IMG/VR virus record: IMGVR_UViG_3300011723_000019
Span: 2,000 to 65,999 of that record
Origin: a virus
Lineage: Duplodnaviria; Caudoviricetes
Reading direction: 5' to 3' (one strand)
Length of the DNA: 64,000 nt
Shown here: piece after piece, positions 3,929 through 21,601 of the stretch
Numbering within the stretch: the stretch's first letter is position 1
Layout of the letters: each line of letters begins with the position of its first letter
Made by a program: the position numbers and the translations under genes
The notes under the pieces: generated by a model
Databases searched by the model: none
Told to the model about the DNA's origin: nothing
Seen by the model: the letters and a program-made list of their open reading frames with translations, nothing else

Positions 3929-4105
3929 ATGAAAGAAAAAACTAAAAATTTGATTGACGATTCAGAATTATGCAGAATCCTGGATATTCACCGGACCACA
4001 TTATACAAATGGCGCAAAAAGAATTGGATTCCATTTTATCAGATTGGAAGAAATATAAAATACGACTTAGACGAAGTATTAGCGTTTGCCAAAAGTTTAA
4101 ACTAA
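3929..4105 (+). CDS. Excisionase/MerR-type HTH protein (58 aa, below the ORF-track cutoff)
   Basis: Hand translation MKEKTKNLIDDSELCRILDIHRTTLYKWRKKNWIPFYQIGRNIKYDLDEVLAFAKSLN. Confidence 0.8.
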   Translation: MKEKTKNLIDDSELCRILDIHRTTLYKWRKKNWIPFYQIGRNIKYDLDEVLAFAKSLN

Positions 4106-4109
4106 ACCT

Positions 4110-4373
4110 ATGAATGACATTGTATCAAACCCATTCCAAACGCTCTATGATGCTATTTTGGAATTAAAGCAGGAAATAACAGATTTAAAGCAATTGAACT
4201 CCGCAATTGACGATCGTCTAATGTCTCGCCAGGAAGCTGCAGCATATTTAAAAGTACATGTTGACACTGTCACAAGACTTGCTAGCTCTGGTCAATTAAA
4301 AAAATCGAACATAGGTCGGAACCTGAAATTTAGAAAGTCGGACTTAGATCAATATTTAAATAACAACGCATAA
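4110..4373 (+). CDS. Excisionase-family HTH protein
   Basis: LMSRQEAAAYLKVHVDTVTRLASSGQLKKSNIGRNLKFRKSDLDQYL, HTH_17-like. Confidence 0.85.
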   Translation: MNDIVSNPFQTLYDAILELKQEITDLKQLNSAIDDRLMSRQEAAAYLKVHVDTVTRLASSGQLKKSNIGRNLKFRKSDLDQYLNNNA

Positions 4374-4376
4374 AAA

Positions 4377-4406
4377 AAAAGCTACTTAATGCAGGTAGTA
4401 GCTTTT
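4377..4406. terminator. Bidirectional intrinsic terminator
   Basis: AAAAGCTACT-N10-AGTAGCTTTT. Confidence 0.7.
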
Positions 4407-4505
4407 GGACAAATTCTTTATTTACAATCTATAACAGTGCTAAGATAAAGATTTATGTCCAATTATGCAAATTATTGAATAACAAATGGATATAACTCAT
4501 GTATT

Positions 4506-7109
4506 ATGCAGAACGGTAATGTAGAACATACACAAAAAAGCATTACATACACACAAAACAACCTTGACAATAACAATATTTCTCTATCAGATATTTGGCC
4601 CCAAATAAAACTTTTGTTGGCCGATGGTATATCTTTAATTCCCGTTCGAGATAAAGATCACGGGGATAAAAAAGCTAAATCGCCGTGTATGGTTTCTTGG
4701 AAGCCCCAACAGACCGAACGCATGACCGAAGCTGAGTTATGGGAAGCAATGAACCAATATGATACTACAGCTATCGGGGTTGTGTGTGGTGAAATATCAG
4801 GCCGTTTAGAGCTTATAGATATTGATAGCAAGTATAAGCCCGGTATAGAAGCCTTGCTATTAAAGGATTTTGAAAAATTGTATCCTGAGATATTTCCTAA
4901 ATTACGTATTCATGCTACACCTTCAGGAGGTAGGCATGTTATGTACAGAATCGAAGATCATGACGTTGAAGGAAATTTAAAGCTCGCTGGACGTTTTGCG
5001 ACCGATGATGAAGTAAAAGACCAAATAAAGGCCGGAAAGAAACGCCCAACCAAAACGGTGAACTTCTTGGAGACGCGTGGTGAAGGTGGTTATTTCTTAT
5101 ACCCTCCATCCCTTGGCTATTCTGTAGTTCAAGATGTGCCAATCCCAGTAATTACATGGGAAGAGCGTTGTGGTTTAATCAATTTATGTCGGACGTACAA
5201 CGAAGTGGTTAAAGTGGCTCCTACACCGCAGCCAACAAAATCCCAAAACGACTATTATACAACCAATCCATTTGAGGATTTCAATAACCAGTGTGATCCG
5301 GTGCAGCTCATGGAATCGCAAGGTTGGAAGTTCCTTCGTGAAAATGCACGCTTTATTTGGTTTACACGTCCGGGTAAAGAGGATGGTGTTTCTGCAAGCT
5401 GGAACCATGAGAGACGTGTTTTCTTTGTTTTTACTAGCTCTACTGACCTTGACAGCAATCGCGGATACAATCCGGCATCTCTGCTTGCTGAGTTTGGATT
5501 TTCAGGGGATAAGAAAAAAGCATATAAGTATCTTGTTGACAACGGATATGGTAAAATAAAACCTGCTGTCGAAAAAAAGATTATTGCCCAAGCTGTAAAT
5601 AAAAAGATCAATGGCCCAGCCAATCTTAGTGAAGGAGGTAAAAACGAAATCAATACAGGTATTCAGCAAAGTATTATTGCCCATCCTTTTGGTGAGTTTT
5701 GGAAAATAGATGACGGCATAAGCATCCATTTGAGCGATGTTATTTTTGTCCTCAAAGGGTTGGGATTTTGTGACCATTTAGGCAGACTATGCAAATTCAA
5801 TTTTGACACCCGTATTGTGTCTAATTGCGAAGATGAACTAAATAACCTGATTGATAGTCTACGTGATTATGTGAAAATTGAAGATGGTAACCTGCTGGAC
5901 GATATATTCAATGCTATCGAAGAAAAGCTAAGCACAAAAGTAAAGTATATTAGGAGCCGACTACCAAGGCTGGATATGAAATATATATTAGCTGACAAAG
6001 CAAGCGTAGCTTATAAATGCTACACTAATTGTATCCTGGCAATATCTGCCGATGGAGTCAAACAGTTGGATTATGAATGGCTAAAAGGTCAGGATCTATT
6101 TGTTTTTGATTCTCAGATACAGCAGCGAGAATATTATTTCGATCAACCCAGTTCCGACCTTTATAAAACTTATCTAACCAACGCCACTAGGTACACAGAC
6201 CATGTGAAAAATTGCTTGGGCTACCTTGCCCACAAGAAAAAAGTAAAGGATAGAGCCTACCTTATAATATTGACGGAGGAAGTACCCAATATTAAAGACG
6301 GCGGAGGATCCGGAAAGAATGTATTTACAGGGTCTCTTAGCTGGACTACAACCGTGCATGAGGTTGATGGGGCTATAGTAAAAACTGACGAAAAGATGCT
6401 GCAGTCTTGGAACGGCCAAAATATTTTCGTTATGTCAGATCTTCGAAAGAATTTTTACTGGCCAATGCTTAAGAACCCTGTTTCTGATAACATGACTATC
6501 AAAAAGCTATACAAGGACGAAAGCAGTATACCATTCGAATTATCACCAAAGTTTGTTGCGTCTACTAATTTTTCTTATGATATATCCGACGGAGGGCTTA
6601 AGCGTAGAGCAAGGCCTATAGAGTTTACACCTTTTTACACAAAAAACGGCGGTGTCAAAAAAGTACACGGGAAAATGTTTCCTGACGATTTTACCGCAGA
6701 GGATTGGATGAGCTATGATGAAGTGATAATTGAATGTATCCAATATCATTTACAACAAGATGGACAGATCGACGAAGTTGTGTTGTCAGAAGGTGGGCAG
6801 TACAAACAATTAGTGTTAAAATATGGTGAGGACTTATTTGAGAGAATCAGTGACTTTACTGATGAACTAATCGACGATCGTCCGATGGGTTTCGTTAAAA
6901 ATCTAAAAGATGAGATAGCATCATACCTTGATCAGTTCCAAAATCGGTTCCAAAAAATTTCATCTTTTTCAATTTACGAACTCATTTCCTATTTCGCAGA
7001 GAAAAAAGGATTTGAATTTTCCTACAATAAACGCAAAGGGATGAACAATCAAAAAAATGAAAAAAATTGGATATATGAGTTTATAGAGCAAGATTTTTTG
7101 GAACCTTAA
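4506..7109 (+). CDS. Bifunctional primase-polymerase (Prim-Pol) fused to a P-loop helicase-like domain
   Basis: GVVCGEISGRLELIDID, TPSGGRHVMYR and ETRGEGGYFLYPPS Prim-Pol motifs; GGSGKN Walker A. Confidence 0.88.
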   Translation: MQNGNVEHTQKSITYTQNNLDNNNISLSDIWPQIKLLLADGISLIPVRDKDHGDKKAKSPCMVSWKPQQTERMTEAELWEAMNQYDTTAIGVVCGEISGRLELIDIDSKYKPGIEALLLKDFEKLYPEIFPKLRIHATPSGGRHVMYRIEDHDVEGNLKLAGRFATDDEVKDQIKAGKKRPTKTVNFLETRGEGGYFLYPPSLGYSVVQDVPIPVITWEERCGLINLCRTYNEVVKVAPTPQPTKSQNDYYTTNPFEDFNNQCDPVQLMESQGWKFLRENARFIWFTRPGKEDGVSASWNHERRVFFVFTSSTDLDSNRGYNPASLLAEFGFSGDKKKAYKYLVDNGYGKIKPAVEKKIIAQAVNKKINGPANLSEGGKNEINTGIQQSIIAHPFGEFWKIDDGISIHLSDVIFVLKGLGFCDHLGRLCKFNFDTRIVSNCEDELNNLIDSLRDYVKIEDGNLLDDIFNAIEEKLSTKVKYIRSRLPRLDMKYILADKASVAYKCYTNCILAISADGVKQLDYEWLKGQDLFVFDSQIQQREYYFDQPSSDLYKTYLTNATRYTDHVKNCLGYLAHKKKVKDRAYLIILTEEVPNIKDGGGSGKNVFTGSLSWTTTVHEVDGAIVKTDEKMLQSWNGQNIFVMSDLRKNFYWPMLKNPVSDNMTIKKLYKDESSIPFELSPKFVASTNFSYDISDGGLKRRARPIEFTPFYTKNGGVKKVHGKMFPDDFTAEDWMSYDEVIIECIQYHLQQDGQIDEVVLSEGGQYKQLVLKYGEDLFERISDFTDELIDDRPMGFVKNLKDEIASYLDQFQNRFQKISSFSIYELISYFAEKKGFEFSYNKRKGMNNQKNEKNWIYEFIEQDFLEP

Positions 7110-7346
7110 GCTTCTTTTGGAACAATTTGGTTTTTTTTTGGAACCTAAAAACAGCCTTTAAATATGTTTAAAGCAATATTTTTAGGATGGTTCCAAAAAA
7201 CCAAAGTATTTTCTTTAAAACTCAACAGAAAATAAAAAAAGAATGATGATTAAAATATACGCTAAAAACAGTGGGGTTAAAAACAAAATGATTTTTATTT
7301 CCTGTATAAAAAAAGTTTTAGGCGTTTTTTATAGATTTTTTGGAAC
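7098..7346. repeat. TTGGAAC iteron cluster with AT-rich core (candidate origin of element B)
   Basis: TTGGAAC at 7098, 7117, 7138 and 7340; GTTCCAA at 7190; core TTTAAATATGTTTAAAGCAATATTTT at 7157-7182; directly after the primase gene. Confidence 0.7.
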
Positions 7347-7354
7347 CAAGAAAA

Positions 7355-7726
7355 ATGACAGATAAACAAATGATCGAAATACTAAAAAAAAGACACCCTG
7401 ACGTCTATGCGAAAATAAAAGCGACAGATGTAGGGAGCATAAATAATACCCTTGTTGACCTAGCTTGGTTCTTCTCTGGTATGTATGAGCAGCGGACTAA
7501 TATATTTATTTGTGCCTGTTTATTGAAGTATTCTCCGAATACCATAGTAGACAATTCGAGGGTGACTCATGGCTTGGTTGGGGAAATGGCCCGTGTAAAA
7601 GGTGTTACTAAGGGAGCTATCAGCCAGAAAATAACTACAGCGGTATTTCAGTACCAGCATTATGCAGATATAGAAGAAAAAGCAAACAGAATATTGGATA
7701 AATTAAATAATGTGATTTATGAGTAG
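7355..7726 (+). CDS. Hypothetical protein with possible C-terminal HTH
   Basis: ATG 7355 is in frame with the track ORF; GEMARVKGVTKGAISQKI is HTH-like. Confidence 0.65.
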   Translation: MTDKQMIEILKKRHPDVYAKIKATDVGSINNTLVDLAWFFSGMYEQRTNIFICACLLKYSPNTIVDNSRVTHGLVGEMARVKGVTKGAISQKITTAVFQYQHYADIEEKANRILDKLNNVIYE

Positions 7727-8093
7727 TAAGAAAGTAAAAGTGAATACTGAAGATCAATGGAGCATTGATTTTATGAATAAGAAAGTTTCAGATGAAAGAA
7801 AGAAGATGCAGTCTTGCGAGGAAGGGTTTAAAAGATATGTTATGCGTAGAGCATTTTTTGTCTTAAATAAAAATTACCGATCATTTAATATGCTAAACGC
7901 AATAGCGAATAAAGCAATAGAGAATCTTATCTACAATTATGATTATCAGCTTCCTTTCAATCAAGATCATGTTGATAGATCAATAGTTGAAGTGTTTCTA
8001 AAATATGGTTCAAAGTATTGGATAAAGAAAACCGGATGGTTCGGCAAAGACAGAAGAAAAGACACTTATATCGAAAATTTCAAAGGTGAATAG
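7719..8093 (+). CDS. Hypothetical protein (124 aa)
   Basis: Start overlaps the previous stop. Confidence 0.75.
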   Translation: MSSKKVKVNTEDQWSIDFMNKKVSDERKKMQSCEEGFKRYVMRRAFFVLNKNYRSFNMLNAIANKAIENLIYNYDYQLPFNQDHVDRSIVEVFLKYGSKYWIKKTGWFGKDRRKDTYIENFKGE

Positions 8094-8131
8094 AGGTAGT
8101 AATTTTTGAAAACAACAAAGAAATACAGAAT

Positions 8132-8446
8132 ATGGCAGTAAAAGGAAAAACTAACAATCCCAATGGAAGACCAAAGGGAGTTCCCAACAAAGTGACAACG
8201 GATTTGAGAGGTGGAATTGACGCATTTCTGAAAAACAAATGGAACGAAGTTTATGAAATTTGGGATAGATTGGATGACAAAGATAAAATCCTGTTTATGG
8301 ACAAAATGATGAAGTACGCTATTCCAACATTACAATCTACAACAATTGATGCCAAGGTTGAATCAAATTCAAAATTGGAAAAGTTGAATGCTACGCAATT
8401 AAACACATTGATAGATCAAATTTTGGAAGAAGATGAGAATACATGA
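8132..8446 (+). CDS. Terminase small-subunit-like protein
   Basis: N-terminal GKTNNPNGRPKGVPNK motif common in phage TerS-like proteins; helical C-terminus. Confidence 0.55.
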   Translation: MAVKGKTNNPNGRPKGVPNKVTTDLRGGIDAFLKNKWNEVYEIWDRLDDKDKILFMDKMMKYAIPTLQSTTIDAKVESNSKLEKLNATQLNTLIDQILEEDENT

Positions 8447-8867
8447 AGAAATTAGTAATGGCGCAGGGATTTCTCCTGAAGAAATAAAGCGCGGAACTAT
8501 AGAAAGTATCCGCAAAACAGAAGATGGTTCATTTGTCTATCACTTTTATAGATTGCCCGGCTTTTGCACTATTTTAGGATTCGATGATAAGCTGATTGGC
8601 TGGCATGCGGACAATGACTCCCCTGCTTACATTGATTTTAAAAAAGAGTTCTTAATCAATTTAGATATCGAAGCATTGAAAGTATTCGGCAAGAACAAAG
8701 AAAAAGATTTGGATATCGTGTTTGACGGAGCATCGTACATTGACTTAAATTTGATAAATCCACCGCATCGAGCCCCTATCGTATTAGTAATGTTATATAG
8801 CGAGGATGCTAAAATGATCGCTAGAAAGCTTGGCTATCCAGTTATTAATCATGCACAATTGACATAA
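8433..8867 (+). CDS. Hypothetical protein (144 aa)
   Basis: Overlaps neighbours in an operon. Confidence 0.75.
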   Translation: MRIHEEISNGAGISPEEIKRGTIESIRKTEDGSFVYHFYRLPGFCTILGFDDKLIGWHADNDSPAYIDFKKEFLINLDIEALKVFGKNKEKDLDIVFDGASYIDLNLINPPHRAPIVLVMLYSEDAKMIARKLGYPVINHAQLT

Positions 8868-9082
8868 TGAGAACAATTAACCCGAAAACGGAAGAATATA
8901 AGCAATGCTTAATTTCTTTGATTGAATTTGGCTTCACAGAGCCATTAAGAAAGATTAGATCATTTCCTGATCAACCAATTCAAATAATCAATGAAGGGGA
9001 AAGTCTGGAAATAAAAAATCATCCTTTGAATTTTGTAAAATACAATAGTGATAATGGTTTTGTATTGTTTCCCATGCCATGA
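8867..9082 (+). CDS. Hypothetical protein (71 aa)
   Basis: TAATG stop-start overlap. Confidence 0.7.
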   Translation: MRTINPKTEEYKQCLISLIEFGFTEPLRKIRSFPDQPIQIINEGESLEIKNHPLNFVKYNSDNGFVLFPMP

Positions 9083-9360
9083 ATAGCCGAGATATAGATT
9101 TTGACAAATGCAAATGGTATGCCGGTGGTTGTATCATTGAGCAAGGCACTGATAATTATCGTTTCTTCTTGGAATTACTTATCAAGAATAGGCATATAGA
9201 GACCTTACAGGAGATTCGCGATCGAGGGTACCCCGAAATCCATCTTATTCTAAATGCTGCTTCTTACTTGAGATATAGGGCGGACAACGAAGAAAAGAAA
9301 GTATTCGGGTTACCAACAAGCAATTATATTAGCGATAATATTAAGAAATTGACAGATTGA
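9079..9360 (+). CDS. Hypothetical protein (93 aa)
   Basis: ATGA overlap with the previous gene. Confidence 0.7.
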   Translation: MNSRDIDFDKCKWYAGGCIIEQGTDNYRFFLELLIKNRHIETLQEIRDRGYPEIHLILNAASYLRYRADNEEKKVFGLPTSNYISDNIKKLTD

Positions 9361-9438: not shown

Positions 9439-9461
9439 CTAAACTTTATGTAAAGGTTTAG
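9439..9461. promoter_or_regulatory. Quasi-palindromic operator copy 1, CTAAACTTTA-N3-AAAGGTTTAG
   Basis: 20/23 identical to 13070-13092; lies between a terminator and an operon start. Confidence 0.65.
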
Positions 9462-9515: not shown

Positions 9516-9782
9516 ATGGAACAGAAGTTTTATAGCACCAAAGAAGCCAGTCGCATGCTTAACATTGAGCGCACGACGCTTTACGCATGGAGGAACAAAG
9601 GTAAAATCAAAATGGAGAAGTTTGACAGTCAATATTACATAAGCGCAGACGAAATCAAGCCTATCTTAGAAGAAAGGATTAAAACCGGCAAAACTCAAAT
9701 CTCAACAGATTTTCCTGCGGTTAGTCATCAGCCTATTTTGATCGAAATGCCACGAAGAAAATATGATTCCGAAACCCGATAG
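9516..9782 (+). CDS. MerR/Xis-type HTH DNA-binding protein
   Basis: FYSTKEASRMLNIERTTLYAWRNKGKI. Confidence 0.8.
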   Translation: MEQKFYSTKEASRMLNIERTTLYAWRNKGKIKMEKFDSQYYISADEIKPILEERIKTGKTQISTDFPAVSHQPILIEMPRRKYDSETR

Positions 9783-9869
9783 GCGTACTAAAAACATCGT
9801 TTAATTTACTTTATTACATTTATCATTTATTTGTTATCGGTTATTGTTATCGGTTTAAGTGAAAAAGCA

Positions 9870-13168: not shown

Positions 13169-16100
13169 ATGTCAGAAATTAATTACAAAGTCACAGTTGA
13201 TGATAGCGAGGCCAAAAAGAAGCTAAATGATCTTTGGGCATTCTTAAAAAGTGGGGAATCGAAGACGAAAAGTATCATTGATTTCGATAAGACGGAAAAG
13301 GGGTTAAAAAGGGTACTTGATAATCTCGAAAAGGTAAAAAGCAAAACCGCATCCATAGGCGGACTAAACGTTGACGGATCGGGTGATGCAAAAAGGTCAA
13401 CGGGTGCTATCCGTCAATTAAGTGATGAGCAAAAGAAGCTCAAACAAGCCCAATTAGATAATATTGAATCTATTCGCCGCCTACGTGAGGAACGCTCGAA
13501 GGAAATAGGCGAACTAAATCTTTTAAAGCAAATTGAACAAGAGCATAAGGCAACCTTAGCAGAAAAGAAGGCCGCCGCGCAAGATCTGACCCAAACAGAA
13601 AAGGAATTAAATATCCAATATAAACAAGGTCAGATTGAAATGCAGGAGTATAACCGACTGCTTAAAGAACAAGCCGAGGAACGTCGTAAAGCAACTGCAG
13701 CGGAACGAGAAGCAACAAAAGCGGTAAAGGAAGCTGAGAAAGCCCGTAAGGACGCTGAACGTGAAGCTGAAAAAGCCGCTAAAGCTGCAGAAAAGAGAAG
13801 AAAGCAGCTTGAAAAGGAAAGTAGCGAGTATTACCAGCTCAATAAAGCCCTAGGAAGTGTCCGTAAAGAAGCTAAAGATGTCTTGGCCGAAATGTTCAAG
13901 TTGGAGCGCCAGGGGCTTAAGAATAGTGCAGCGTATGAGCTGTTGGAAAACCAGTCAAAAGACCTTGTTGCCCAAACTCAGTACCTAGATAAGGGTATTA
14001 AAAAGATTGACGCAAGCCTTGGTCTTCATCAACGCAATGTCGGAAACTATGCTGCTGCTTTAGATAACATTATTCCAATTGTTGGCCGTGTAAATAGTCA
14101 GCTTGCGATGTTCGGGACATCGATCGATGATATTGCTGGTAAACCAGGGATATTTAAAGAAATTGGAGCCGGTATTACTAGTGCATTCAAAAACTTGGTG
14201 GCGTTTGTCTCTACTCCAATTGGAGCCGCAGTTGCTACCATTGGCGGACTGTTCGCACTATTCCAGGCTAACAAAGATACTGTTATCCAATTTGATGACG
14301 GCCTAAAGAGCGTTAGTAAAACAACAGGATTATCCGGCAAGGCGCTTCAACAGTATTCGGATGACATAATACAGCTTTCGCGAGCTTTGAAAACGGTAGA
14401 ATCAAAGCAACTCCTTGAATATTCACAGGTTGCGGGACAACTAGGAGTTAAAGGCAGGGACAATCTATTAGCATTTTCGGATGCTTTAGCAAAACTTGAA
14501 ACCGCATCAGATATACGCGGAGAGGAAGGCGCGACAAAAATAGCTAGGCTCCTTACCCTTACTGATGGCGGCGTCCAGAATGTTAAAGAATTTGGAGACG
14601 AGATTGTAAACCTTGGTAACAACTTCGCGGCCACCGAATCTGAGATTTTGACGAATGCCGAAGCTATAGGGCAAAACGTTGGTTTATATAAGATCGGCCG
14701 TAAAGACGTACTTGCATACGCTACAGCAACGAAAGCAGTAGGTCTAGAAGCGGAGGTTGTCGGTTCAACTTTCTCACGTACACTCGGACAGTTCGAGAAA
14801 ATGACTAGATCTGGAAAAGGTGTAAATGATTTATTAAAAATTATCGGAGGCACTCAATCTGATTTACAAAAGCGTTTTAAAACTGATGCCAGCGGTGTCT
14901 TCATGGATTACATTCGAGGTTTGAACAAAATTAACCAAGCAGGTGGCTCCGTTAATGAAGCACTGGAACGTACTGGTATTATAGCAGTTCGGGATCAAAG
15001 AGTTATTGCGTCTTTAGCATCAACTGGTTATGACACTTTAACGAATGCGATGAACACCGCCAAGAACGCTAGCGGCGCTATGCAGGCGGAGTTCGAAACA
15101 GGGGCAAGTAAATTGGTTAATCAGATCAAGCGAATCAATATTGCCTGGGATAACTTGGTATTGTCTATAGAAAATGGATCTGGAGCAATTGGAAAAACCT
15201 CAGTCGCAATAATCGGTTATGTAGCTGATATGCTGGAAGCATTCAATAAGATCGCAGACTCTGCAAACATCTTTGAAGGTGTTTTTCGATATATATCAAC
15301 TGGTTTCAAAATGACGGTTCCGGGTCGTGCCGTAGATTGGGCAACTGGCGGTGGATTTGATAAAGTTTCAAATTGGATTTTCCCTAACGACTCTAAAAAG
15401 GCATCAGAAGATAATTCTAAGTTTTTCGCTGAGTTCTCACAAAAGACTAGAGCCGAGCAATTAAAAATGATTGCTAATCAGGAAGCATTGATAAAAAAGC
15501 AAAATTCCCTCAATAAAGCATTTGCTAATCCAGTATTGGAGGAGAATTTAAAGAAAATGAGGAGCCTTTTGAAGACTGATGTTGATACTTCTAAAATTGA
15601 TTTTGGTGTTTCAGATAAAGATAAAAGAAAGTCGGAACGAGCAGCGGAACAGTTGCGCCAAGCCACCGAGCGTCAACGCTCGCTTCAACTAGAAATCGAC
15701 AAGATCAACGAAACGGCATCTAGGAACCAACTTTCCCGTGATGAATCCGAAGTTGCATCTGTAAAGGATAAATATGCGAAAATACGGGAAGAAGTTGACA
15801 AGTTTTATAGAAACCCCAAGAACAAAGGTTTAAAAGTAAATACGTCTGGGCTAGTCGCAAGTGAAAATTTCGAAGTAAGTGAAGCAGAGATTAGACAAAA
15901 TACGAAGGCAACGGAAACTCAGTTTGATGCTCAGAAAAAGTTCTTGGACGAATATAATGCTTATGCGGAACAAACTTCAAAGGCTGCAGCTGACAAGCGG
16001 TATGCAAAAGAGTTAGCTATTTTCAAAGATTATGAGCAAAATGTAAGAGCTACTTACGATAGCTTGGTCACAAAGAAAAAGACAGCAGACCTCGCACAGT

Positions 16101-17959
16101 ATGTCAGCACCATGAAGTTTACTCAGGCCGAGGAAGAAGCGTTGAAGAAATTGAGCATCCGTATCGCTGAAATAGATCAAAATAAGCGTCAACGAGAAAG
16201 CAAAGGATTGATCGAAGCGCTAAGAGCCGCACAAACTGTAAATGACAAATTGGTTGCAATCGAGCAAGATTATCAAGATAAAATCAAATCCCTGCGTGAT
16301 AATAACGAGTTAACTCCTGATCGCGAAAAACTGCTTAATAAACAAAAGGGACGCAGCACCTCTCAGGTAGCCGTTGAAGAACTGACTGGCTCTATTGAAT
16401 GGGAAACGTTGTTTTCCGGTATGGACGAGATGGGAGTCAAACAAATTGAAAATCTTATTTCAACAATTGAAACTAAGTTCGACGATCTGAAAGGCAAGTT
16501 CGATCCAATCGACCTTCAAAACTTGAAACGTCAATTGCGAGAAGCTCAAAACGTCCTAATTGAGAAAAATCCGTTTACACAACTGGCATCATCAATTAAG
16601 GTAATTATGAACAATGCCGGTAACGATTCGGCAGAAGCTGCTGAGAAGACAAAAACGGCATGGGTCAACCTTTCTAAATCGACAAAAAACAGTTTTGACT
16701 TCATATCTAATGCTGTTGAATCTGCATCAGTTTTAAAAGATGCTATAGGGGAAGTCGGGGCGACTGCGTTATCTTCATTGACAGCTCTATCAGTAGCAGC
16801 GGTTGCGGTTACCTCCGCTATAAAAACAGCGGAGAGAGCGTCTGTAATCCTTGCTGTTATTCAGGCCGCATTAGTTGTTGTCCAGTCTTTATTTTCTTTT
16901 TTGAGCAGCGCGTCTAAGAAACGCAATGAGGAATTGAAAAAAGAGCAAGATTATTACAATACACTATCGGAGACATTCGATATCCTAATTGATAAACAAA
17001 AGGAACTGTTTTCGCAGAAATCAGGCAAAGACTCTATGGATGCTTACAAAGAAGCTATTGATCTAGTAAATTCAAAGCTGATCGCTAATAGAAAAAGTCT
17101 TGAAGCTTGGTTTTCCCAAGGCGCCAGTTTATTTAAGCACTCTAATTGGTATAACTATGACAAAGAGCTGGGTAATGTATTGAGTCGGCAAAAACTTTTG
17201 AATATGACTAGTCAAGAATGGTCGGATCTGCTATTAAAACAGCCAACATTGTGGGCTAGACTGCCGGAAGAAGTGCGCAAGTATGGGCAAAGTATGATAG
17301 ATGCAAAAGGCCAAACAAAAGAATTGACCGACGCCTTACAAGAAGCTTTGTCCGGTATTTCTTTAGATGATATACGCGGAGAATTTGAAAGTTTATTTTC
17401 TCAGGCTGATTTAACTTTTGGAGATATATCCGACTCATTCTATAAGCATATGCAAAAAGCAGTGATGCGGTTGGTACAAGACGGTAAGATGACTCAAAGT
17501 ATTCAAGAATGGTATGATAAAGTTACTGACTCATTATCGGATGGTACCTTGACGGAAAGTGAGTCAGAAAACTTGAAAGCTCAATACCAAGCTATTGCTG
17601 AAGCTGGCAATAAGCGGTACCAGGAGATAATGGGTTTAATAGGATATGAAGGTGATACCAAATCGTCAGGTCTTAAAGGATCTATTCAAAAGGAAATGAC
17701 GGAAGCAACCGCAAGCGAGTTGACTGGTCTTTTTCGATCAACATTTGAACTTTCGAAGCGATCCTTACAAGAATCACAAAGCCAAACTATATCAATGGGT
17801 AAGATAGTTGAAATGACCAGCAACGGGTTAGTCGTACTTAACAATATCCAAAATAATACTGCAGCAACGGTTGTTGAACTACAGAACGCAGTAAGCGAGT
17901 TGAAGAATATCAATAAAAATACATCACCTCAATCAATGAGGGCATACGGAGGAGGATAA
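13169..17959 (+). CDS. Tail tape measure protein (TP901-type core), 1596 aa
   Basis: Long coiled coil; VSKTTGLSG...QVAGQLGV...NLGNNFAATESEI core; followed by tail-tip genes. Confidence 0.9.
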   Translation: MSEINYKVTVDDSEAKKKLNDLWAFLKSGESKTKSIIDFDKTEKGLKRVLDNLEKVKSKTASIGGLNVDGSGDAKRSTGAIRQLSDEQKKLKQAQLDNIESIRRLREERSKEIGELNLLKQIEQEHKATLAEKKAAAQDLTQTEKELNIQYKQGQIEMQEYNRLLKEQAEERRKATAAEREATKAVKEAEKARKDAEREAEKAAKAAEKRRKQLEKESSEYYQLNKALGSVRKEAKDVLAEMFKLERQGLKNSAAYELLENQSKDLVAQTQYLDKGIKKIDASLGLHQRNVGNYAAALDNIIPIVGRVNSQLAMFGTSIDDIAGKPGIFKEIGAGITSAFKNLVAFVSTPIGAAVATIGGLFALFQANKDTVIQFDDGLKSVSKTTGLSGKALQQYSDDIIQLSRALKTVESKQLLEYSQVAGQLGVKGRDNLLAFSDALAKLETASDIRGEEGATKIARLLTLTDGGVQNVKEFGDEIVNLGNNFAATESEILTNAEAIGQNVGLYKIGRKDVLAYATATKAVGLEAEVVGSTFSRTLGQFEKMTRSGKGVNDLLKIIGGTQSDLQKRFKTDASGVFMDYIRGLNKINQAGGSVNEALERTGIIAVRDQRVIASLASTGYDTLTNAMNTAKNASGAMQAEFETGASKLVNQIKRINIAWDNLVLSIENGSGAIGKTSVAIIGYVADMLEAFNKIADSANIFEGVFRYISTGFKMTVPGRAVDWATGGGFDKVSNWIFPNDSKKASEDNSKFFAEFSQKTRAEQLKMIANQEALIKKQNSLNKAFANPVLEENLKKMRSLLKTDVDTSKIDFGVSDKDKRKSERAAEQLRQATERQRSLQLEIDKINETASRNQLSRDESEVASVKDKYAKIREEVDKFYRNPKNKGLKVNTSGLVASENFEVSEAEIRQNTKATETQFDAQKKFLDEYNAYAEQTSKAAADKRYAKELAIFKDYEQNVRATYDSLVTKKKTADLAQYVSTMKFTQAEEEALKKLSIRIAEIDQNKRQRESKGLIEALRAAQTVNDKLVAIEQDYQDKIKSLRDNNELTPDREKLLNKQKGRSTSQVAVEELTGSIEWETLFSGMDEMGVKQIENLISTIETKFDDLKGKFDPIDLQNLKRQLREAQNVLIEKNPFTQLASSIKVIMNNAGNDSAEAAEKTKTAWVNLSKSTKNSFDFISNAVESASVLKDAIGEVGATALSSLTALSVAAVAVTSAIKTAERASVILAVIQAALVVVQSLFSFLSSASKKRNEELKKEQDYYNTLSETFDILIDKQKELFSQKSGKDSMDAYKEAIDLVNSKLIANRKSLEAWFSQGASLFKHSNWYNYDKELGNVLSRQKLLNMTSQEWSDLLLKQPTLWARLPEEVRKYGQSMIDAKGQTKELTDALQEALSGISLDDIRGEFESLFSQADLTFGDISDSFYKHMQKAVMRLVQDGKMTQSIQEWYDKVTDSLSDGTLTESESENLKAQYQAIAEAGNKRYQEIMGLIGYEGDTKSSGLKGSIQKEMTEATASELTGLFRSTFELSKRSLQESQSQTISMGKIVEMTSNGLVVLNNIQNNTAATVVELQNAVSELKNINKNTSPQSMRAYGGG

Positions 17960-17960: not shown

Positions 17961-18473
17961 ATGGGCTTTGCAATTGATAACAAAAATACAGCTACAGAAT
18001 TTAAGTTGTTTTTTAAACGCGGTGTTTGGAGCGAGTTATTGAAGTTTCCTAAACCCAAACAAAGGGCCTTTTATGATTGGCCGGATGAACACGGAAAGGA
18101 CTATGACGATTTTTCGCCAACGGTGTATGAACCGCTACAGTATAATATCGGGTGCTACCTATCTTCAACTTCCCTTACTCGATTACAAGAGCAAAGGGAG
18201 GTTTTGCTGAATATTCTTAAAAAACCTGAGGGCTTCAACTTAAGAGTTGATGCGTTGGGGCGATCATTCGCGCTGCGGTATATCGGTTCGCCTGATCTAA
18301 GCATTTTTAATCCCCGTAGAACTACGGGTATAATTTACACTGAATTTAACCTGACATTGGAAAATAACTTCGCACCTGTCGGTGTAGATTTCTACCTGGC
18401 AGATATTAACGGTTTAATTCTGAGCTATCCTAGTAAACCTATACAATTCGAGCAACAAAAACAAGTATTTTAA
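17961..18473 (+). CDS. Distal-tail (Dit)-like protein
   Basis: Directly after TMP; LLKFPKPK..YDWPDEHG resembles Bacteroidota prophage tail proteins. Confidence 0.55.
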   Translation: MGFAIDNKNTATEFKLFFKRGVWSELLKFPKPKQRAFYDWPDEHGKDYDDFSPTVYEPLQYNIGCYLSSTSLTRLQEQREVLLNILKKPEGFNLRVDALGRSFALRYIGSPDLSIFNPRRTTGIIYTEFNLTLENNFAPVGVDFYLADINGLILSYPSKPIQFEQQKQVF

Positions 18474-21064
18474 TGAAGATCCAAATAAAAAGAAAAGGCA
18501 TCAATACAATAGAGATACCATTGAATGCCGGAATATATGCCAACAAAGTAATGGCCGAGCAATTGTTATCGTTTAGTTTCCAAACTTCAAAACTACTCGA
18601 CCTGGTGGTCGGTGATACTTTGCTGTACAAGGGCGAGGAATACATGTTGAACAATACCCCAAGCATTAGGAAGACAAGTCGTTTTTCATTCGAATATGAT
18701 TTTGCTTTTGAGGGGCCTCGACACTTATTATCGAAATTATTCATTACACATCTTGGCGCTCGTAAGTTCTCGTTTTCAGGGACGGCTCAGGAGTGGTTAA
18801 ATTTTATTGTCGATTGCGTCAATAGCAAATCTTCAGGTTGGACTGTGGGCCAGTTTGAAGATATGGGCCGAGTAACGATTGAATTTGATTCGACTTATAT
18901 TCTTGATGCTCTTACAATGGTAGCAGAAGCGATGAAAGGCGAATGGGGCGTGAAAGGGAAAGTAATATCTCTTAAGAAAACAGTCGGTACCGCAAGAGCT
19001 TTGACGTTCAAATATGGTAAAGGTGAAGGACTATATAGTTTAACCCGTAAAATCATAGATGATAAGAAAATAGTTACCCGGGCGTATGCTCGGGGCGGCT
19101 CCAATAATCTTCCGGCTGGAATGAGGGATTATTTTACTATTGATGGATATGTTGAAAAGAACGTATCAATTTACGGTCTTACAGAAGGAGAATTTATCGA
19201 CGAAGAAATATATCCTAAAAGAACCGGCACCGTTACTGCTGTGTCGCAAATTAACAAGCAGCAATTCACCATTTCCGATAATTCAATTGACTTTGATCTT
19301 AACGCTCAAAGAGTGAATGGGGTAACACCGCAAATCGTCTTTAAGTCTGGGTTATTGGAAGGAAATACTTTTGAAATAGAATCTTATAGTCCTGCAAATA
19401 AAACAATTCGTTTCAAGGCTAATGACGAGGGTAACGGAATTTTGTTCCCTACAGAGGTTGTACATGCGGAGATCGGCGATAAATACACATTGATTGGTAT
19501 TCGTATGCCACAATCATATATTGATGCTGCGGTCACAGAGTTAACGGCAAAACGTCAAGAGTACTTAGATAGCAACAGTGTTCCTCGAGTGGTGTATGAC
19601 CTTGAAATTGATATTATACAGTTAAAGAAATCGAATGAAATGCTAGAAGCTGGCGACATAATCAAAGTTATAGATATAGACTAGGGGATTGATTCAAATA
19701 TTAGGATCACTGAGGTAAACTATCCGGCACACTATCCTGATGTGCTTGAAAATGGAATGCAATTCAATGCAGTCATAGGGAATGAAGTCACCTATACATT
19801 ATCGCAAAAGATCCAAAATGACATCAAGAAAAATCAGGAGGTTATCACCCAGTACAATAAAGCAAGTTGGGAACGCGACCGACGGAATATCCAGGCATTG
19901 ACAGAATTCCGTTCGAAAGTACTTGATCCGGACGGGAACCTTGAGCAGGCAATGATGCAGGCGATCGCTGGTTGGTTTGGTACCGAATCCATGTATTATG
20001 ATTTGGATGATGTGCAGATGGTTGTTAATGCAGGTGGTGACCCGAACAGCTTTGCTATGACTGCAGGTAGATTGATCCACAAGGTATTCAAGATTGAGGG
20101 ATTAGGCAATATTTGGTTACTCGATCCTTTTAGTATTACAGGTTTGGATCCACTGGAAAGCTATTATCTATCCGCTAAGGTGAGCCGCACCGCGCTAACC
20201 GGTGAATGGGTGTTATCATCTGAGCAAATGGGAACAGAGTCGGAGCCTAGTTATTGGCATTTCAATTTTGGGGTACTTTCAAGTGTGATTGAAGGCGAAC
20301 GATCTTTCAAGCCTACGAAAGGTTTTACTTTGATTAGTGGTGGAAGTATCGAGACCGATGTTATCAGCGCTTACATGATTAATGTTAACCGTTTATTCGC
20401 CCAGGTTGTGACAGTGGGAAGCGACGGCTATAACAATGCAGGTATTTCGGGGCTTGCTGATGGCAAAATCTATGACGATAATTGGAATATTATTGGTGAT
20501 GATCCAAATAAGTCTGTCAGATTCTGGGCCGGATCGGATGAGAACGAGAAGCACAAAGCGCCATTCAATGTTTTGAACGACGGAAGCATGAGAGCTGAGA
20601 ATGGAAAAATTGGTAATTTCAATATGGACGCCAACAAGTTGTATATCGGGCAAAAAGATACATGGCAGCCGTTTGGCAAATCAGTATTCCTGTATGGCGA
20701 TTACTTTTTAATGCGTGACAACGGAGCCGTTGCGGGGCAAAGACGGGAGTTTTCATGGAACCTATATAAGAATCAAATTGCAGTTAATGAAGATAACGCG
20801 GTTTCCATTTTTAACACTATGAACAATTTTGATCCTTTGTTTCCAAACACCAATGTGGCGTTGGAACTTGAAGCTAGTGGATCGAATGAAAATTACGCAT
20901 TGAGCATAAATAGTGGAGATATCCGTGTAAAAGGGAAAAAAGGTTATACCGGAAAGATCACTTTAGCAAACACCGCATCGAGTACGGTTTATTATCATTT
21001 CAATTACATTAACGGCTTGCTGGTTGATTATGTTTCAAACGGCAGTGCAACAAATCCATTTTAA
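18473..21064 (+). pseudogene. Tail-tip/hub (Tal-like) protein interrupted by one in-frame TAG at 19682-19684
   Basis: The frame continues through TAG (DID*GIDSNIRITEVNYP) into ORF 19742..21064; KYGKGEGLYSL..IVTRAYARGG tail motif. Confidence 0.75.
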
Positions 21065-21065
21065 T

Positions 21066-21512
21066 ATGAAACTAACAACAACAAAGCTAGATTTTGATCT
21101 AATTGTTCAAAAGCAATTGCAGGATATAGACAATTTATTCTTTCAGCGGCTTGTTGAGCTTTGCGATGAACGGATAGCGATTCAAAGAGCCAAGGTGTCA
21201 CCTGAAGGCTATAACGACCAGACGGGACAATTGAGGTCTTCCGTTGGTTATATTATCTATCGTGATGGAAAAATACGACATGAGAATTTCGAGCTTGCGC
21301 CTTATGGGACGGATAAGGCCCCGGGCCTAAAGGCCGGACGTGAGCTTGCATTGAGTCAACTTAGAATAACTGAGGGTTGGGGTGTTGTTTTGGTTGCCGG
21401 CATGGAGTATGCAAGTTGGCTAGAAAGCAACCACAATAGAACCGTCCTAGCTTCCGCAACCTTCAAATTAGAGGACGATATGGAATATATCTTAAAAAAC
21501 ATATCGGTTTAG
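21066..21512 (+). CDS. HK97 gp10-like tail-completion protein
   Basis: YNDQTGQLRSSVGY and AGMEYASWLE motifs; ATG 21066 follows the previous stop. Confidence 0.55.
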   Translation: MKLTTTKLDFDLIVQKQLQDIDNLFFQRLVELCDERIAIQRAKVSPEGYNDQTGQLRSSVGYIIYRDGKIRHENFELAPYGTDKAPGLKAGRELALSQLRITEGWGVVLVAGMEYASWLESNHNRTVLASATFKLEDDMEYILKNISV

Positions 21513-21519
21513 TCTGATC

Positions 21520-21559
21520 CGATAACAGATCGAAAAAAGCGATAACAAAACCGATAACA
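21520..21559. repeat. Three direct repeats CGATAACA (candidate integrase arm-type sites)
   Basis: Copies at 21520, 21540 and 21552. Confidence 0.5.
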
Positions 21560-21568
21560 TTCCAATAA

Positions 21569-21601
21569 AAAAGCCCCTTTGTGTCATACAAAGGAGCTTT
21601 T
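21569..21601. terminator. Bidirectional terminator at the B/C junction
   Basis: AAAAGC-CCCTTTGT..ACAAAGG-A-GCTTTT. Confidence 0.65.

What the first reader, a model, noticed from the sequence alone, without database searches (positions are those of the whole stretch)
3929..21601. Candidate tail-module satellite: replicates itself and carries its own tape measure and tail tip, but no head or tail tube
Seen: Xis x2, Prim-Pol/helicase, iterons, a TerS-like gene, two chaperone-like genes, a 1596-aa TMP, and Dit-, Tal- and gp10-like genes. No capsid, portal, protease, TerL, tail tube, holin or lysin is recognisable, and the unknown ORFs are all 178 aa or shorter. It abuts a complete prophage that has all the missing parts. 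Known: P4 and PICIs hijack or resize heads, and cf-PICIs make heads and steal tails. Inferred: this is the mirror strategy. It would template the helper tail tube on its own TMP and tip, giving chimeric virions with a different tail length and host range. Its dedicated operators and antisense switch look like organised regulation rather than random decay. The alternative is a deleted prophage, which the amber stop in Tal would fit.
Basis: partly seen in the sequence, partly recalled or inferred. Interest (0 to 1): 0.85.

Follow-up and report, generated by a model that had tools for sequence, protein, structure and literature searches.

The report
Head-less phage satellite carrying tail parts
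This is most of a roughly 27-kb mobile island of Sphingobacterium that has integration and replication genes and carries a phage tail ruler, its likely chaperones and tail-end pieces but no head genes, so it probably spreads by borrowing the rest of a virus particle from a helper phage, a strategy so far demonstrated only in cholera bacteria.

Summary
The region is not a one-off deleted prophage. It belongs to a family of discrete islands integrated in tRNA-Arg(TCT), seen in at least 14 other assemblies, one a complete chromosome.

Family layout: integrase, defence cargo, a divergent regulator, two Xis-like genes, PrimPol-helicase, an iteron origin, conserved small ORFs, chaperone-like genes, a headless repressor domain, tape measure, Dit, optional Tal, and a gp10-like gene. 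There is no terminase, portal, capsid or tube.

- Tail genes are under strong purifying selection (dN/dS 0.05-0.09).
- A member with only 32% identity keeps the architecture.
- The att sites have co-varying arm repeats.

Corrections:
- The island starts left of the record; window 1-3900 is its cargo.
- It ends at 21616.
- Its tail genes resemble a different group of Sphingobacterium siphophages, not the adjacent prophage. That prophage is a separate tandem integrant at the same tRNA.
- The Tal amber is a real CAG-to-TAG mutation of this strain.

Satellites that build chimeric tails with their own tape measure were shown for Vibrio PLEs (Nature 2026). Earlier runs of this scan noted tape-measure satellites in other phyla. 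This is therefore a new variant of a known kind. Helper dependence is inferred only.

The parts
1..2609 (.). Cargo region of the element: 3' end of a RelA_SpoT-domain gene (2-259), two small minus-strand genes (277-699, 703-1041), an SRAP peptidase (1006-1692), and 1931-2398 and 2385-2609.
   Evidence: In L053/L054/L055 the same block lies between Int-270aa and the 96-aa regulator, inside the element. Pfam SRAP and RelA_SpoT. Nucleotide colinearity with L039 runs from window 621.
3137..3436 (-). 99-aa regulator candidate, transcribed divergently from the Xis-PrimPol operon.
   Evidence: 80-85% identical in other family members. 46-49% identical to the first early gene beside cI in related phages. 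dN/dS 0.07-0.08.
3929..4373 (+). Two HTH_17 excisionase/AlpA-like genes (3929-4105, 4110-4373).
   Evidence: PHROG 66 and Pfam HTH_17 in relatives.
4506..7109 (+). Prim-Pol primase fused to a helicase-like domain.
   Evidence: Pfam Prim-Pol 1e-11, phrog_19930 9e-57. 91-92% identical in family members. dN/dS 0.08-0.11.
6935..7346 (.). Origin-like site: seven TTGGAAC/GTTCCAA heptamers around the 26-nt AT-rich core at 7157-7182.
   Evidence: Conserved in L039, L044, L053 and L055. The same heptamer and a core identical at 24 of 26 positions occur in prophage A at 35062-35351. Absent from the G-type phages.
7340..9360 (+). Six conserved small genes: 7340, 7719, 8132 (DUF5681-like), 8433, 8867 and 9079.
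   Evidence: 75-100% identical in family members, except the 7340 gene (47% to L039, 82% to L044). 7340 and 7719 homologs occur in the distant member L063. 7340 homologs precede TerS in G-type phages. DUF5681.
9439..9461 (+). Operator copy 1 (CTAAACTTTA-N3-AAAGGTTTAG) upstream of the HTH_17 gene.
   Evidence: Two copies in the window against 0.02 expected. Both copies are conserved in all family loci that cover them and absent from G- and A-type loci.
9516..10247 (+). HTH_17 regulator candidate (9516-9782) and a conserved 138-aa gene (9831-10247).
   Evidence: Pfam HTH_17 5e-11. Homologs in L057/L063.
10252..11324 (+). Two tail-assembly-chaperone-like genes (222 aa and 133 aa).
   Evidence: - The model has a beta-hairpin followed by helices.
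- BFVD matches are dominated by tape-measure chaperones (prob 0.96-0.99, E 6e-3 to 8e-3).
- Homologs sit directly upstream of the TMP in phage loci L071 and L081.
- 10923 matches the pre-TMP ORF of G002 (E 2e-4).
- Only 10 clusters were found among 1.84 billion representatives.
11409..11945 (+). 178-aa secreted-protein gene with an N-terminal signal peptide. Optional cargo.
   Evidence: Sequence. Absent from the L044 variant.
12170..12562 (+). Conserved small gene. The true start is probably the ATG at 12272, which shares a 19-nt start region with the next gene.
   Evidence: Repeat D1. Called as 97-99 aa in relatives. Homologs in L057/L063 and in G-type phages.
12616..13011 (+). Headless S24 (cI/LexA C-terminal) domain.
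   Evidence: Aligns with the C-terminal domain of the 250-279-aa cI-like repressors of G-type phages. The G-x-S-M serine and the lysine are kept. There is no HTH and no Ala-Gly region.
13070..13092 (+). Operator copy 2, upstream of the tape-measure gene.
13169..17959 (+). Tape measure protein, 1596 aa.
   Evidence: PhageMin_Tail and 14 PHROG families, ten of them TMP. 94% identical in L039. 56-79% identical to G-type phage TMPs. dN/dS 0.07.
17961..18473 (+). Distal tail (Dit)-position protein, 170 aa.
   Evidence: phrog_6305 tail protein. 69-72% identical to the gene between TMP and Tal in G-type phages. dN/dS 0.05.
18473..21064 (+). Tal-like tail-tip gene, interrupted by TAG at 19682-19684.
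   Evidence: Prophage_tail and phrog_19846. Intact at 844 aa in L059-L062. The codon is CAG in L059/L039. T in runs X1 and X2, C in X3 and X5. The gene is absent from the L044 variant.
21066..21512 (+). HK97 gp10-like (tail-completion/neck) candidate, 148 aa.
   Evidence: phrog_5377. 4 of 15 family members hit Pfam HK97-gp10_like below threshold (best E 0.005). In most of the 80 genome loci it lies 2-3 kb upstream of the TMP, between capsid and tube positions. Retained in all family variants, including L063 (E 1e-40).
21520..21616 (+). Right end of the element: three CGATAAC arm-type repeats (21520, 21540, 21552), a hairpin, and the att core ending at 21616 (the 3' end of tRNA-Arg).
   Evidence: Contigs of the source run break here, and loose ends read the host flank and the integrase arm.

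Best explanation
Window 1-21616 is the larger part of one copy of a family of 17-27-kb integrative elements of Sphingobacterium and relatives. These elements behave genomically like phage satellites.

Shown:
- The elements sit in the 3' end of tRNA-Arg(TCT) between a 37-nt direct repeat, with arm-type repeats on both sides.
- They carry a tyrosine integrase, two Xis-like genes, a primase-helicase followed by an iteron origin, and a variable defence-cargo slot.
- They carry a family-specific block of small genes and two operons that share one operator.
- They carry a cassette of chaperone-like genes, tape measure, Dit, optional Tal and a gp10-like gene.
- They carry no terminase large subunit, portal, capsid, protease, connector, tube, receptor-binding or lysis genes.
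- All genes evolve under purifying selection.

Inferred:
- When a helper siphophage of the related 'G-type' group develops, the element excises and replicates.
- It then expresses the cassette. Its tape measure with chaperones, Dit/Tal and the neck-end protein nucleates tails.
- The helper's tube polymerises on these tails, which join helper capsids filled with element DNA. The particles have chimeric tails, as shown for Vibrio PLEs.
- Every structural gene it keeps would be a protein that touches the tape measure.
- The headless repressor C-domain, which resembles the helper group's cI, may sense or disturb the helper's repressor.

In this strain Tal carries a nonsense mutation. A separate prophage (A) has integrated between the element and the tRNA.
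For: - Recurrence. The same gene order is found in at least 14 other assemblies, with host genes on both sides (GH3 on the left; tRNA-Arg, YceI and tRNA-Ser on the right). One of these is a complete 5.99-Mb chromosome.
- att sites. attL and attR share a 37-nt repeat that includes the tRNA 3' end. The arm repeats co-vary between element variants on both arms: CGATAAC against GAGAAC.
- Variants. A variant with a different TMP (1344 aa) and no Tal keeps everything else at 82-100% amino-acid identity in most backbone genes. A distant member (chaperone 32% identical, different replication genes) keeps Int, Xis x2, replication genes, small ORFs, chaperone, TMP (phrog_9959), a 276-aa ORF and the gp10-like gene beside tRNA-Arg, with no head genes.
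- Selection. dN/dS between the window and L059 is 0.07 for TMP, 0.05 for Dit, 0.05-0.09 for Tal, 0.05 for gp10-like, 0.08 for the chaperone and 0.11 for PrimPol, at dS 0.3-1.5 over a colinear element.
- No head or tube. Pfam and PHROGs find none. There is no match to the ORFs between capsid and TMP of related phages except gp10-like and the chaperone position. The 222-aa ORF folds as a hairpin plus helices, not as a capsid or tube.
- Related full phages carry TerS, TerL, portal and capsid between the 7340 homolog and the TMP. The element has a family-specific 5-kb block there instead.
- Own regulation. The twin operator is specific to the family.
- Exchange with G-type phages. The TMP is 85.7% identical at nucleotide level over 2.6 kb to G003, and the cargo 92.6%. 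The S24 domain matches their cI.
- Precedent. PLE chimeric tails (PMC12987554).
Against: - Nothing here shows excision, replication, packaging or transfer. All evidence is comparative.
- No helper was identified in the same genome.
- A packaging function is not established. The DUF5681-like gene has unknown function and shows no similarity to the TerS-like gene of L057.
- The gp10-like and chaperone assignments rest on sub-threshold profile hits, weak fold matches and synteny.
- The tape-measure length is within the range of the related phages, so the benefit of carrying it is unexplained.
- This copy has a broken Tal.
- Purifying selection would also fit a non-transfer role such as interference with phage tail assembly.
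Confidence: 0.6

Rival explanations
1. It is a satellite, but the helper is the adjacent prophage A. A would supply head, tube and lysis, and the element would copy A's origin or regulatory site.
For: - The element and A share TTGGAAC heptamers and a 26-nt core identical at 24 of 26 positions. In each case these lie downstream of the replication gene, and A has a third heptamer site beside its integrase.
- G-type phages lack these sites.
- Both integrate at the same tRNA-Arg.
- All four runs laid show the A-type left arm after the core. The runs were chosen with a query that spans the junction.
Against: - No protein of the element resembles any protein of A (phmmer E<0.01). The primases are unrelated.
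- The tail cassette, chaperones, regulator and S24 domain are homologous to G-type phages.
- The element occurs without A in L044 and L059-L061.
Confidence: 0.2
2. It is a domesticated island kept for defence. The tape measure, Dit and gp10-like proteins act as decoys that poison tail assembly of related phages, alongside the cargo defence genes. The element moves rarely, or by other means.
For: - Purifying selection without any packaging gene.
- A rich, variable defence cargo: RelA_SpoT, Panacea/SocA, HEPN AbiU2, PemK.
- Tail-assembly interference by mobile elements is known (PMC11364771 and PMC10884400, listed).
Against: - A complete att/Int/Xis/replication set with co-varying arm sites indicates active mobility.
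- A 4.8-kb tape measure with chaperones and tip proteins, swapped as a set between variants, is more than a decoy needs.
- In PLEs, interference and chimeric tails coexist.
Confidence: 0.13
3. It is a deleted or decaying prophage. A G-type phage lost its head and tube module, and the rest is drifting.
For: - Many genes have G-type homologs, and G002 has a full head module between the 7340 homolog and the TMP.
- This copy has an amber codon in Tal.
- The SRAP cargo gene is split in some copies.
Against: - The head-less layout is conserved in at least 14 assemblies and in members as distant as 32% identity.
- dN/dS is 0.05-0.11 in the tail and replication genes.
- The place of the head genes holds about 5 kb of family-specific conserved genes rather than a scar.
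- The att sites are intact.
- The amber is confined to two near-identical isolates.
Confidence: 0.05
4. The element and prophage A form one composite phage. A lacks a tail tip of its own and depends on the element's Dit/Tal.
For: - In A and its relatives, the TMP-like gene is followed only by a 138-aa gene and the integrase. I did not recognise a Dit or Tal there.
- The N-terminus of A's 863-aa fibre gene is 77-83% identical to fibres that follow Tal in G-type phages.
Against: - Both occur separately. The element stands alone at the tRNA in L044 and L059-L061, and A-type records of 40-43 kb exist in IMG/VR.
- An att core separates them.
- A has its own tape measure.
Confidence: 0.02

Closest known systems
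PLEs of Vibrio cholerae (PLE1, PLE4, PLE11), satellites of myophage ICP1 (Nature 2026, PMC12987554)
   Same: A head-less integrative satellite that encodes its own tape measure, tail assembly chaperone and a baseplate-hub/tip protein. It is shown to build chimeric tails from satellite and helper parts. It also carries anti-phage functions.
   Different: - No sequence relationship was detected or expected, and the phylum differs.
- The helper type is a siphophage rather than a contractile phage.
- This family adds Dit, an optional Tal and a gp10-like neck-end protein, plus a headless repressor domain.
- The replication module is PrimPol and the integrase is a tyrosine recombinase at tRNA-Arg.
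- Function is untested here.
EPIPs of Mycolicibacterium aichiense (bioRxiv 2025, PMC12822802)
   Same: Small satellites that carry a tape-measure gene. Their particles have altered tail length.
   Different: EPIPs carry capsid, scaffold, adaptor, stopper and TerS genes and a serine integrase. This family carries no head or connector genes.
SaPI/PICI-type islands
   Same: Integrase, a divergent regulator, Xis-like genes, a primase-helicase with an iteron origin immediately downstream, and accessory defence genes. Helper phage dependence is presumed.
   Different: No capsid-size redirection genes or Ppi/TerS were recognised. The size is 17-27 kb. It carries tail structural genes, which classical PICIs lack.
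Capsid-forming PICIs (cf-PICIs)
   Same: A satellite that makes one half of the virion and takes the other from the helper. [quoted passage not shown]
   Different: The opposite half: cf-PICIs encode capsid, portal and terminase and steal tails. This family encodes none of those.
Sphingobacterium 'G-type' siphoprophages (IMG/VR UViGs held here as G001-G004)
   Same: Homologous TMP (56-79%), Dit (about 70%), Tal (about 70%), gp10-like (35-47%), PrimPol (48% in G002), early regulator, 7340 gene, S24 domain and SRAP cargo block.
   Different: These are 50-54-kb provirus records (CheckV completeness 53-96%) in which G002 shows TerS, TerL, portal and capsid by PHROG, plus tube-position and fibre genes. 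There the gp10-like gene lies upstream of the TMP.

Membership tests
Phage satellite (general) | Discrete mobile element with its own integration and excision functions and att sites | tested here: met
   - A 37-nt direct repeat at tRNA-Arg, a tyrosine integrase and Xis-like genes in L044/L046 and L053/L059.
- In the window's source run, the host flank, core and integrase arm are seen as loose ends.
- The integrase itself lies outside the record.
Phage satellite (general) | Lacks the genes for a complete virion (capsid, portal, terminase) | tested here: met
   No Pfam or PHROG hit. No phmmer match to the head-tail ORFs of related phages other than gp10-like and the chaperone position. Complete family members list no candidate.
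Phage satellite (general) | Induction, packaging and transfer depend on a helper phage | not testable with these tools
   Only assembled contigs of public runs were available. There is no virome or induction data.
Phage satellite (general) | Own replication module with origin | tested here: met
   A Prim-Pol/helicase gene followed by an iteron array around an AT-rich core, conserved across the family. Origin activity is inferred.
PLE-like chimeric-tail satellites | Satellite-encoded tape measure | tested here: met
   PhageMin_Tail and TMP PHROGs in three divergent family variants.
PLE-like chimeric-tail satellites | Satellite-encoded tail assembly chaperone | tested here: inconclusive
   BFVD fold matches to chaperones at prob 0.96-0.99 but E about 6e-3. 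No PDB match. Synteny supports the assignment.
PLE-like chimeric-tail satellites | Satellite-encoded hub or tip protein | tested here: met
   A Dit-position gene is present in all variants. Tal (Prophage_tail) is present in the window-type variant.
PLE-like chimeric-tail satellites | Satellite proteins are incorporated into transducing particles | not testable with these tools
   Needs virion mass spectrometry.
PLE-like chimeric-tail satellites | Common descent with Vibrio PLEs | not tested
   No PLE sequence was compared. The different phylum, integrase and replication genes make common descent unlikely. The claim is 'works like', not 'member of'.
SaPI/PICI | int, divergent regulator, xis, pri-rep and ori in order | tested here: met
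   Gene order in L046/L053 and in the window.
SaPI/PICI | TerS or packaging-redirection gene, and capsid-size genes | tested here: inconclusive
   Only a DUF5681-like gene in this copy. A TerS N-domain-like gene occurs in the distant member L057. No capsid-morphogenesis homolog was recognised.
cf-PICI | Encodes capsid, portal, protease and terminase | tested here: not met
   None found.
Defective (decaying) prophage | Idiosyncratic deletions, pseudogenes and relaxed selection | tested here: not met
   Conserved layout in at least 14 assemblies. dN/dS 0.05-0.11 in the tail and replication genes (0.04-0.40 over all genes scored). The only break in the tail and replication genes is the Tal amber of this strain.
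F-type tailocin | Complete non-contractile tail gene set including the tube, plus lysis, with no mobility or replication genes | tested here: not met
   No tube or lysis genes. An integrase, Xis-like genes and PrimPol are present.
HK97 gp10-like tail-completion proteins (for 21066-21512) | Match to PF04883 above threshold | tested here: inconclusive
   The window protein has no hit. 4 of 15 aligned relatives hit at a best E of 0.005. NCBIfam gave nothing. The fold model has pLDDT 68 and no clear match; a chain of the SaPI1 neck entry scored only Z 4.5. Synteny between capsid and tube positions supports the assignment.

The most novel reading that the evidence does not exclude
The family is a 'tape-measure interactome' satellite that parasitises two unrelated phages at once.
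- It would replace the core of a G-type siphophage tail (ruler, chaperones, tip and neck-end protein). Its particles would then escape tape-measure-directed exclusion or carry a different tip.
- It would use a headless copy of the helper's repressor C-domain to trigger or sense the helper.
- It would mimic the origin or control site of the A-type prophage that shares its tRNA-Arg site.
Probability: 0.12. Interest if true: 0.85.

Novelty: new variant of a known kind. Interest (0 to 1): 0.62.

Why it matters
Until 2025-26, satellites were thought to manipulate heads and simply take tails. PLEs showed that a satellite can rebuild the tail core.

This family would be an independent invention of that strategy. 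It is found in Bacteroidota, where I found no described satellite family of this kind, and it acts on non-contractile tails. It has a cleaner logic: it keeps only proteins expected to touch the tape measure, plus a repressor-domain fragment of the presumed helper.

It offers a tractable system in culturable Sphingobacterium, with natural variants that have or lack Tal and carry three different tape measures. With it one can ask why a parasite replaces the tail ruler, how tube and ruler from different genomes are matched, and how defence cargo rides on such elements.

It also shows that provirus callers merge satellites with neighbouring prophages. Here a 66-kb record scored '100% complete' is two elements.

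Tried and rejected
- Stop-codon recoding. Reading TAG as Q or TGA as W does not merge the small ORFs. Only Tal fuses. Rejected as an explanation for 'missing' large genes.
- Simple inversion or deletion of a G-type prophage to explain the SRAP block on the left. Dropped once L053-L055 showed the block lies inside the element.
- IMG/VR scans with the 222-aa and 178-aa ORFs found nothing. The GTDB scan with the chaperone alignment found nothing.
- L126 looked like a second 'gp10 after Tal' case but has no tape measure nearby. Not pursued.
- Foldseek and VIA searches of the gp10-like model against the PDB gave no clear match. A chain of the SaPI1 neck entry scored only Z 4.5, within noise. An hmmsearch of the family profile against PDB sequences gave nothing, and NCBIfam gave nothing.
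- The PDB search with the 222-aa model gave no match.
- Atlas look-up of 10923-11324 returned only unnamed viral clusters.
- No similarity between 8132-8446 and the TerS-like gene of L057 or the TerS of G-type phages.
- The genomes behind the encoding-contig loci could not be searched for helper prophages.
- Laid runs were contigs only. They cannot show excision or expression, and parts of A without cover in X2, X3 and X5 mean nothing.
- Complex prediction was not used. A chaperone-TMP or S24-cI pass would lean on textbook likeness.

Full report
**What the window is**

The window is bases 2000-65999 of a 65,999-bp IMG/VR provirus record. It contains no tRNA.

On the plus strand, 3929-21512 encodes:
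- two HTH_17/excisionase-like proteins;
- an 867-aa Prim-Pol/helicase;
- a run of small ORFs;
- a 1596-aa tape measure (TMP);
- a 170-aa Dit-position protein;
- a Tal-like gene cut by one TAG;
- a 148-162-aa gene of phrog_5377.

None of the small ORFs hits a capsid, portal, protease, terminase, tube or lysis family. Reading TAG or TGA as sense does not fuse them.
- One ORF without a profile hit is 222 aa.
- The 'TerS-like' call is weak here. 8132-8446 is DUF5681-like.

**Is it a one-off remnant? No.**

The 222-aa ORF has few relatives: 5 clusters in the 5.8-billion set and 10 in the 1.84-billion representative set. Their contigs show the same element again and again.

The L044/L046 copy lies on a 153-kb chromosomal contig labelled Sphingobacterium multivorum. 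From left to right it reads:
- host GH3 gene and attL;
- a 549-aa tyrosine integrase (Phage_integrase + SAM_5), a 270-aa gene and a 126-aa gene;
- a 96-aa minus-strand gene, then two HTH_17 genes;
- PrimPol (91% identical) and the same small ORFs (82-100%);
- a different TMP (1344 aa; phrog_9959) and Dit (76%);
- no Tal;
- the phrog_5377 gene (86%);
- tRNA-Arg(TCT), YceI and tRNA-Ser.

attL and attR share a 37-nt repeat made of the tRNA 3' end and the sequence just before it.

Arm-type repeats flank the core on both sides. They differ between variants in a coordinated way. In L044/L046 they are GAGAAC on both arms. In L056 they are CGATAAC on both arms, and the window carries CGATAAC on its one visible, gp10-side arm. 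This is the signature of a working integrase/attP pair.

**Left boundary**

L053-L055 show the window-type variant from its left end. After the integrase and the 270-aa gene comes a cargo slot holding a Panacea/SocA pair, HEPN AbiU2, and the block homologous to window 277-2609, including the SRAP peptidase. The 96-aa regulator and the rest follow.

Window 1-3900, and the RelA_SpoT gene that straddles the window start, are therefore inside the element. The integrase lies left of the IMG/VR record.

Contigs of the probable source isolate (X1) break at the att core. Their loose ends read the GH3-side host flank and the integrase-side arm, so the source genome has the left end.

L059-L061, one of them a complete 5.99-Mb chromosome, give the right end: TMP 1596 aa, Dit, an intact 844-aa Tal, the 148-aa gene, then tRNA-Arg. 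The element is about 27.4 kb in this variant and 19.2 kb in L044.

**Depth of the family**

L063 has a chaperone-like protein only 32% identical and a different helicase/primase pair. It still reads:
- integrase, two HTH_17 genes and replication genes;
- homologs of the 7340 and 7719 genes and of the 9516 HTH gene;
- homologs of the 10252, 10923 and 12170 genes;
- a 1228-aa TMP (phrog_9959) and a 276-aa ORF;
- a clear homolog of the last gene (E 1e-40), then a PemK module and tRNA-Arg.

This is 17.3 kb without head genes. L057, of the same subgroup, has a 101-aa TerS N-domain-like gene (Terminase_2, phrog_51).

**Selection**

The window and L039, a copy of the same variant as L059, are colinear at 88-90% nucleotide identity over 20 kb. 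Window-versus-L059 gene comparisons give these dN/dS values:

| Gene | dN/dS |
|---|---|
| TMP | 0.07 |
| Dit | 0.05 |
| Tal | 0.05-0.09 |
| last gene (gp10-like) | 0.05 |
| 222-aa gene | 0.08 |
| PrimPol | 0.11 |

This divergence accumulated inside the element, so the tail genes are being maintained there.

The only break in the tail and replication genes of this copy is the Tal amber. The codon is CAG in L059 and L039 and TAG here. Runs X1 and X2 carry T, and X3 and X5 carry C. It is a real, recent nonsense mutation of one lineage.

**Where the parts come from**

Seventeen IMG/VR loci hold TMP relatives. Four records (G001-G004, 50-54 kb; CheckV completeness 53-96%) were read in full. Their layout is:
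- a cI-like repressor, then a homolog of the 96-aa gene and early genes;
- in G002, a PrimPol 48% identical, and a homolog of 7340;
- TerS, TerL, portal and capsid (assigned by PHROG in G002 only);
- two small genes, the phrog_5377 gene, a 148-aa gene, and 174-179-aa genes;
- TMP, Dit, an intact Tal (905-924 aa), a fibre gene, and the SRAP block.

The element thus shares much with these 'G-type' phages. Where they have 14 kb of head-to-tube genes, it has about 5 kb of its own conserved genes, and the phrog_5377 gene has moved behind the tip genes.

In most of the 80 genome loci found with that gene's profile, it lies 2-3 kb upstream of the TMP, at the neck position. Four of 15 relatives hit Pfam HK97-gp10_like below threshold. 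Structure searches did not settle the assignment.

The 222-aa protein models as a hairpin plus helices. Its best viral matches are tape-measure chaperones. Its relatives in phages L071 and L081 sit immediately before the TMP. The 133-aa neighbour matches the pre-TMP ORF of G002.

No element ORF matches the tube-position or terminator-position ORFs of G-type phages.

The 131-aa S24 protein aligns with the C-terminal domain of the G-type cI repressors. It keeps the Ser and Lys but has no HTH or cleavage region.

Nucleotide identity to G003 reaches 85.7% over 2.6 kb of the TMP and 92.6% in the cargo. This shows recent exchange.

**Regulation and origin**

A 23-nt palindromic operator stands before the 9516 HTH gene and before the TMP. 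The window has 2 copies against 0.02 expected. Both copies are conserved in every family locus that covers them, including the variant with another TMP, and are absent from G- and A-type loci.

Just after PrimPol lie TTGGAAC/GTTCCAA heptamers around a 26-nt core, conserved in the family. The layout is that of SaPI-type origins; that comparison is from my own knowledge.

**The neighbour**

Prophage A (21617-64000) has a DnaG-type primase, a protease, a TerL and a 1164-aa TMP-like gene, followed by a 138-aa gene and a complete 399-aa integrase on the minus strand.

Its relatives L048 and L050 continue into the same tRNA-Arg, YceI and tRNA-Ser, with a flank identical to that of L044. The window is therefore a tandem array: first the element, then the att core (ending at 21616), then A, with the tRNA lying beyond the end of the record.

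A shares no protein with the element at phmmer E<0.01. It does share the heptamer, and its 26-nt core is identical at 24 of 26 positions (35062-35351). It has a further heptamer pair next to its integrase. I cannot explain this link. It keeps A in play as a second partner.

**Mechanism proposed (confidence 0.6)**

The element is a helper-dependent satellite. It supplies the tape measure and every protein expected to touch it: chaperones, Dit/Tal at one end, and the gp10-like neck-end protein at the other. It takes tube, connectors, fibres, capsid, packaging motor and lysis from a G-type siphophage.

- Shown: architecture, mobility signatures, conservation and selection.
- Inferred: excision, replication, packaging, chimeric tails and the role of the S24 domain.

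**Comparison with what is known**

PLEs of Vibrio cholerae encode TMP, chaperone and baseplate hub. They make chimeric tails, and tmp deletion cuts transduction by 96-99% (PMC12987554). EPIPs of Mycolicibacterium carry a TMP together with capsid genes (PMC12822802).

The idea is therefore no longer new. The family, the phylum, the siphophage context and the gene set are new variants of it.

Literature searches found no description of such elements in Bacteroidota. Earlier notes of this scan record tape-measure-carrying, head-less islands in other phyla. I did not test those notes.

**Verdict**

- Observation: confirmed.
- Interpretation: partly supported. It is a satellite-like family, but the boundaries, the helper and the novelty claims need correction.
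- Novelty: new variant of a known kind.
- Interest: 0.62.

Noticed in passing
window 7098-7190, 35062-35351 and 62712-62784: The element and the unrelated prophage A share TTGGAAC/GTTCCAA heptamer arrays. They also share a 26-nt AT-rich core identical at 24 of 26 positions. A has a further inverted heptamer pair around a hairpin between its last tail gene and its integrase, conserved in five A-type relatives. The binding protein is unknown, and the two elements share no protein.
   Followed up: partly
window 12616-13011: A headless S24 domain (Ser and Lys kept) is homologous to the C-terminal domain of G-type phage cI repressors. It is conserved but evolves faster than its neighbours (44-48% identity between variants, dN/dS 0.18-0.33). 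It could be an anti-repressor or a sensor aimed at the helper.
   Followed up: partly
window 1-2609; L053 5980-11775; L063 17409-18297: The slot between the integrase and the regulator, and in L063 the right end, is a variable defence-cargo site. It holds RelA_SpoT plus a 244-aa membrane protein here, and Panacea/SocA, HEPN AbiU2 and PemK in others. The SRAP block also occurs at the fibre end of G-type prophages. SRAP is intact here but split in L039 and L053.
   Followed up: partly
L056 2480-2840: One MAG contig joins Tal and the gp10-like gene through a single att core to the integrase. This is either a tandem pair of elements or the excised circular form.
   Followed up: no
window 51457-62702: In prophage A the order is 550-aa, 122-aa, an 863-aa fibre, 162-aa, 689-aa, then a TMP-like 1164-aa gene, a 138-aa gene and the integrase. 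No Dit or Tal was recognised after the tape measure. The first 80-126 residues of the fibre are 77-83% identical to fibres that follow Tal in G-type phages. The order is conserved in five relatives.
   Followed up: partly
window 12269-12287 and 12613-12631: An identical 19-nt stretch covers the start codons of two consecutive genes, both beginning MPNK. Weaker copies lie at 3621, 12076 and 17305. This may be a shared translational control site.
   Followed up: no
window 2608-3135: This stretch has no ORF of 66 aa or more here. Relatives L039, L053 and L059 have a 176-aa minus-strand gene at the same place, so the window copy has lost or replaced it.
   Followed up: no
L026 5449-5521; L032 13425-13499: G-type prophages G001 and G004 each carry a tRNA-Asp(GTC) gene inside the phage genome.
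   Followed up: no
whole record: The 66-kb IMG/VR 'provirus, 100% complete' record is a partial satellite plus a separate 42-kb prophage in tandem at one tRNA. The provirus call cut off the satellite's integrase.
   Followed up: yes
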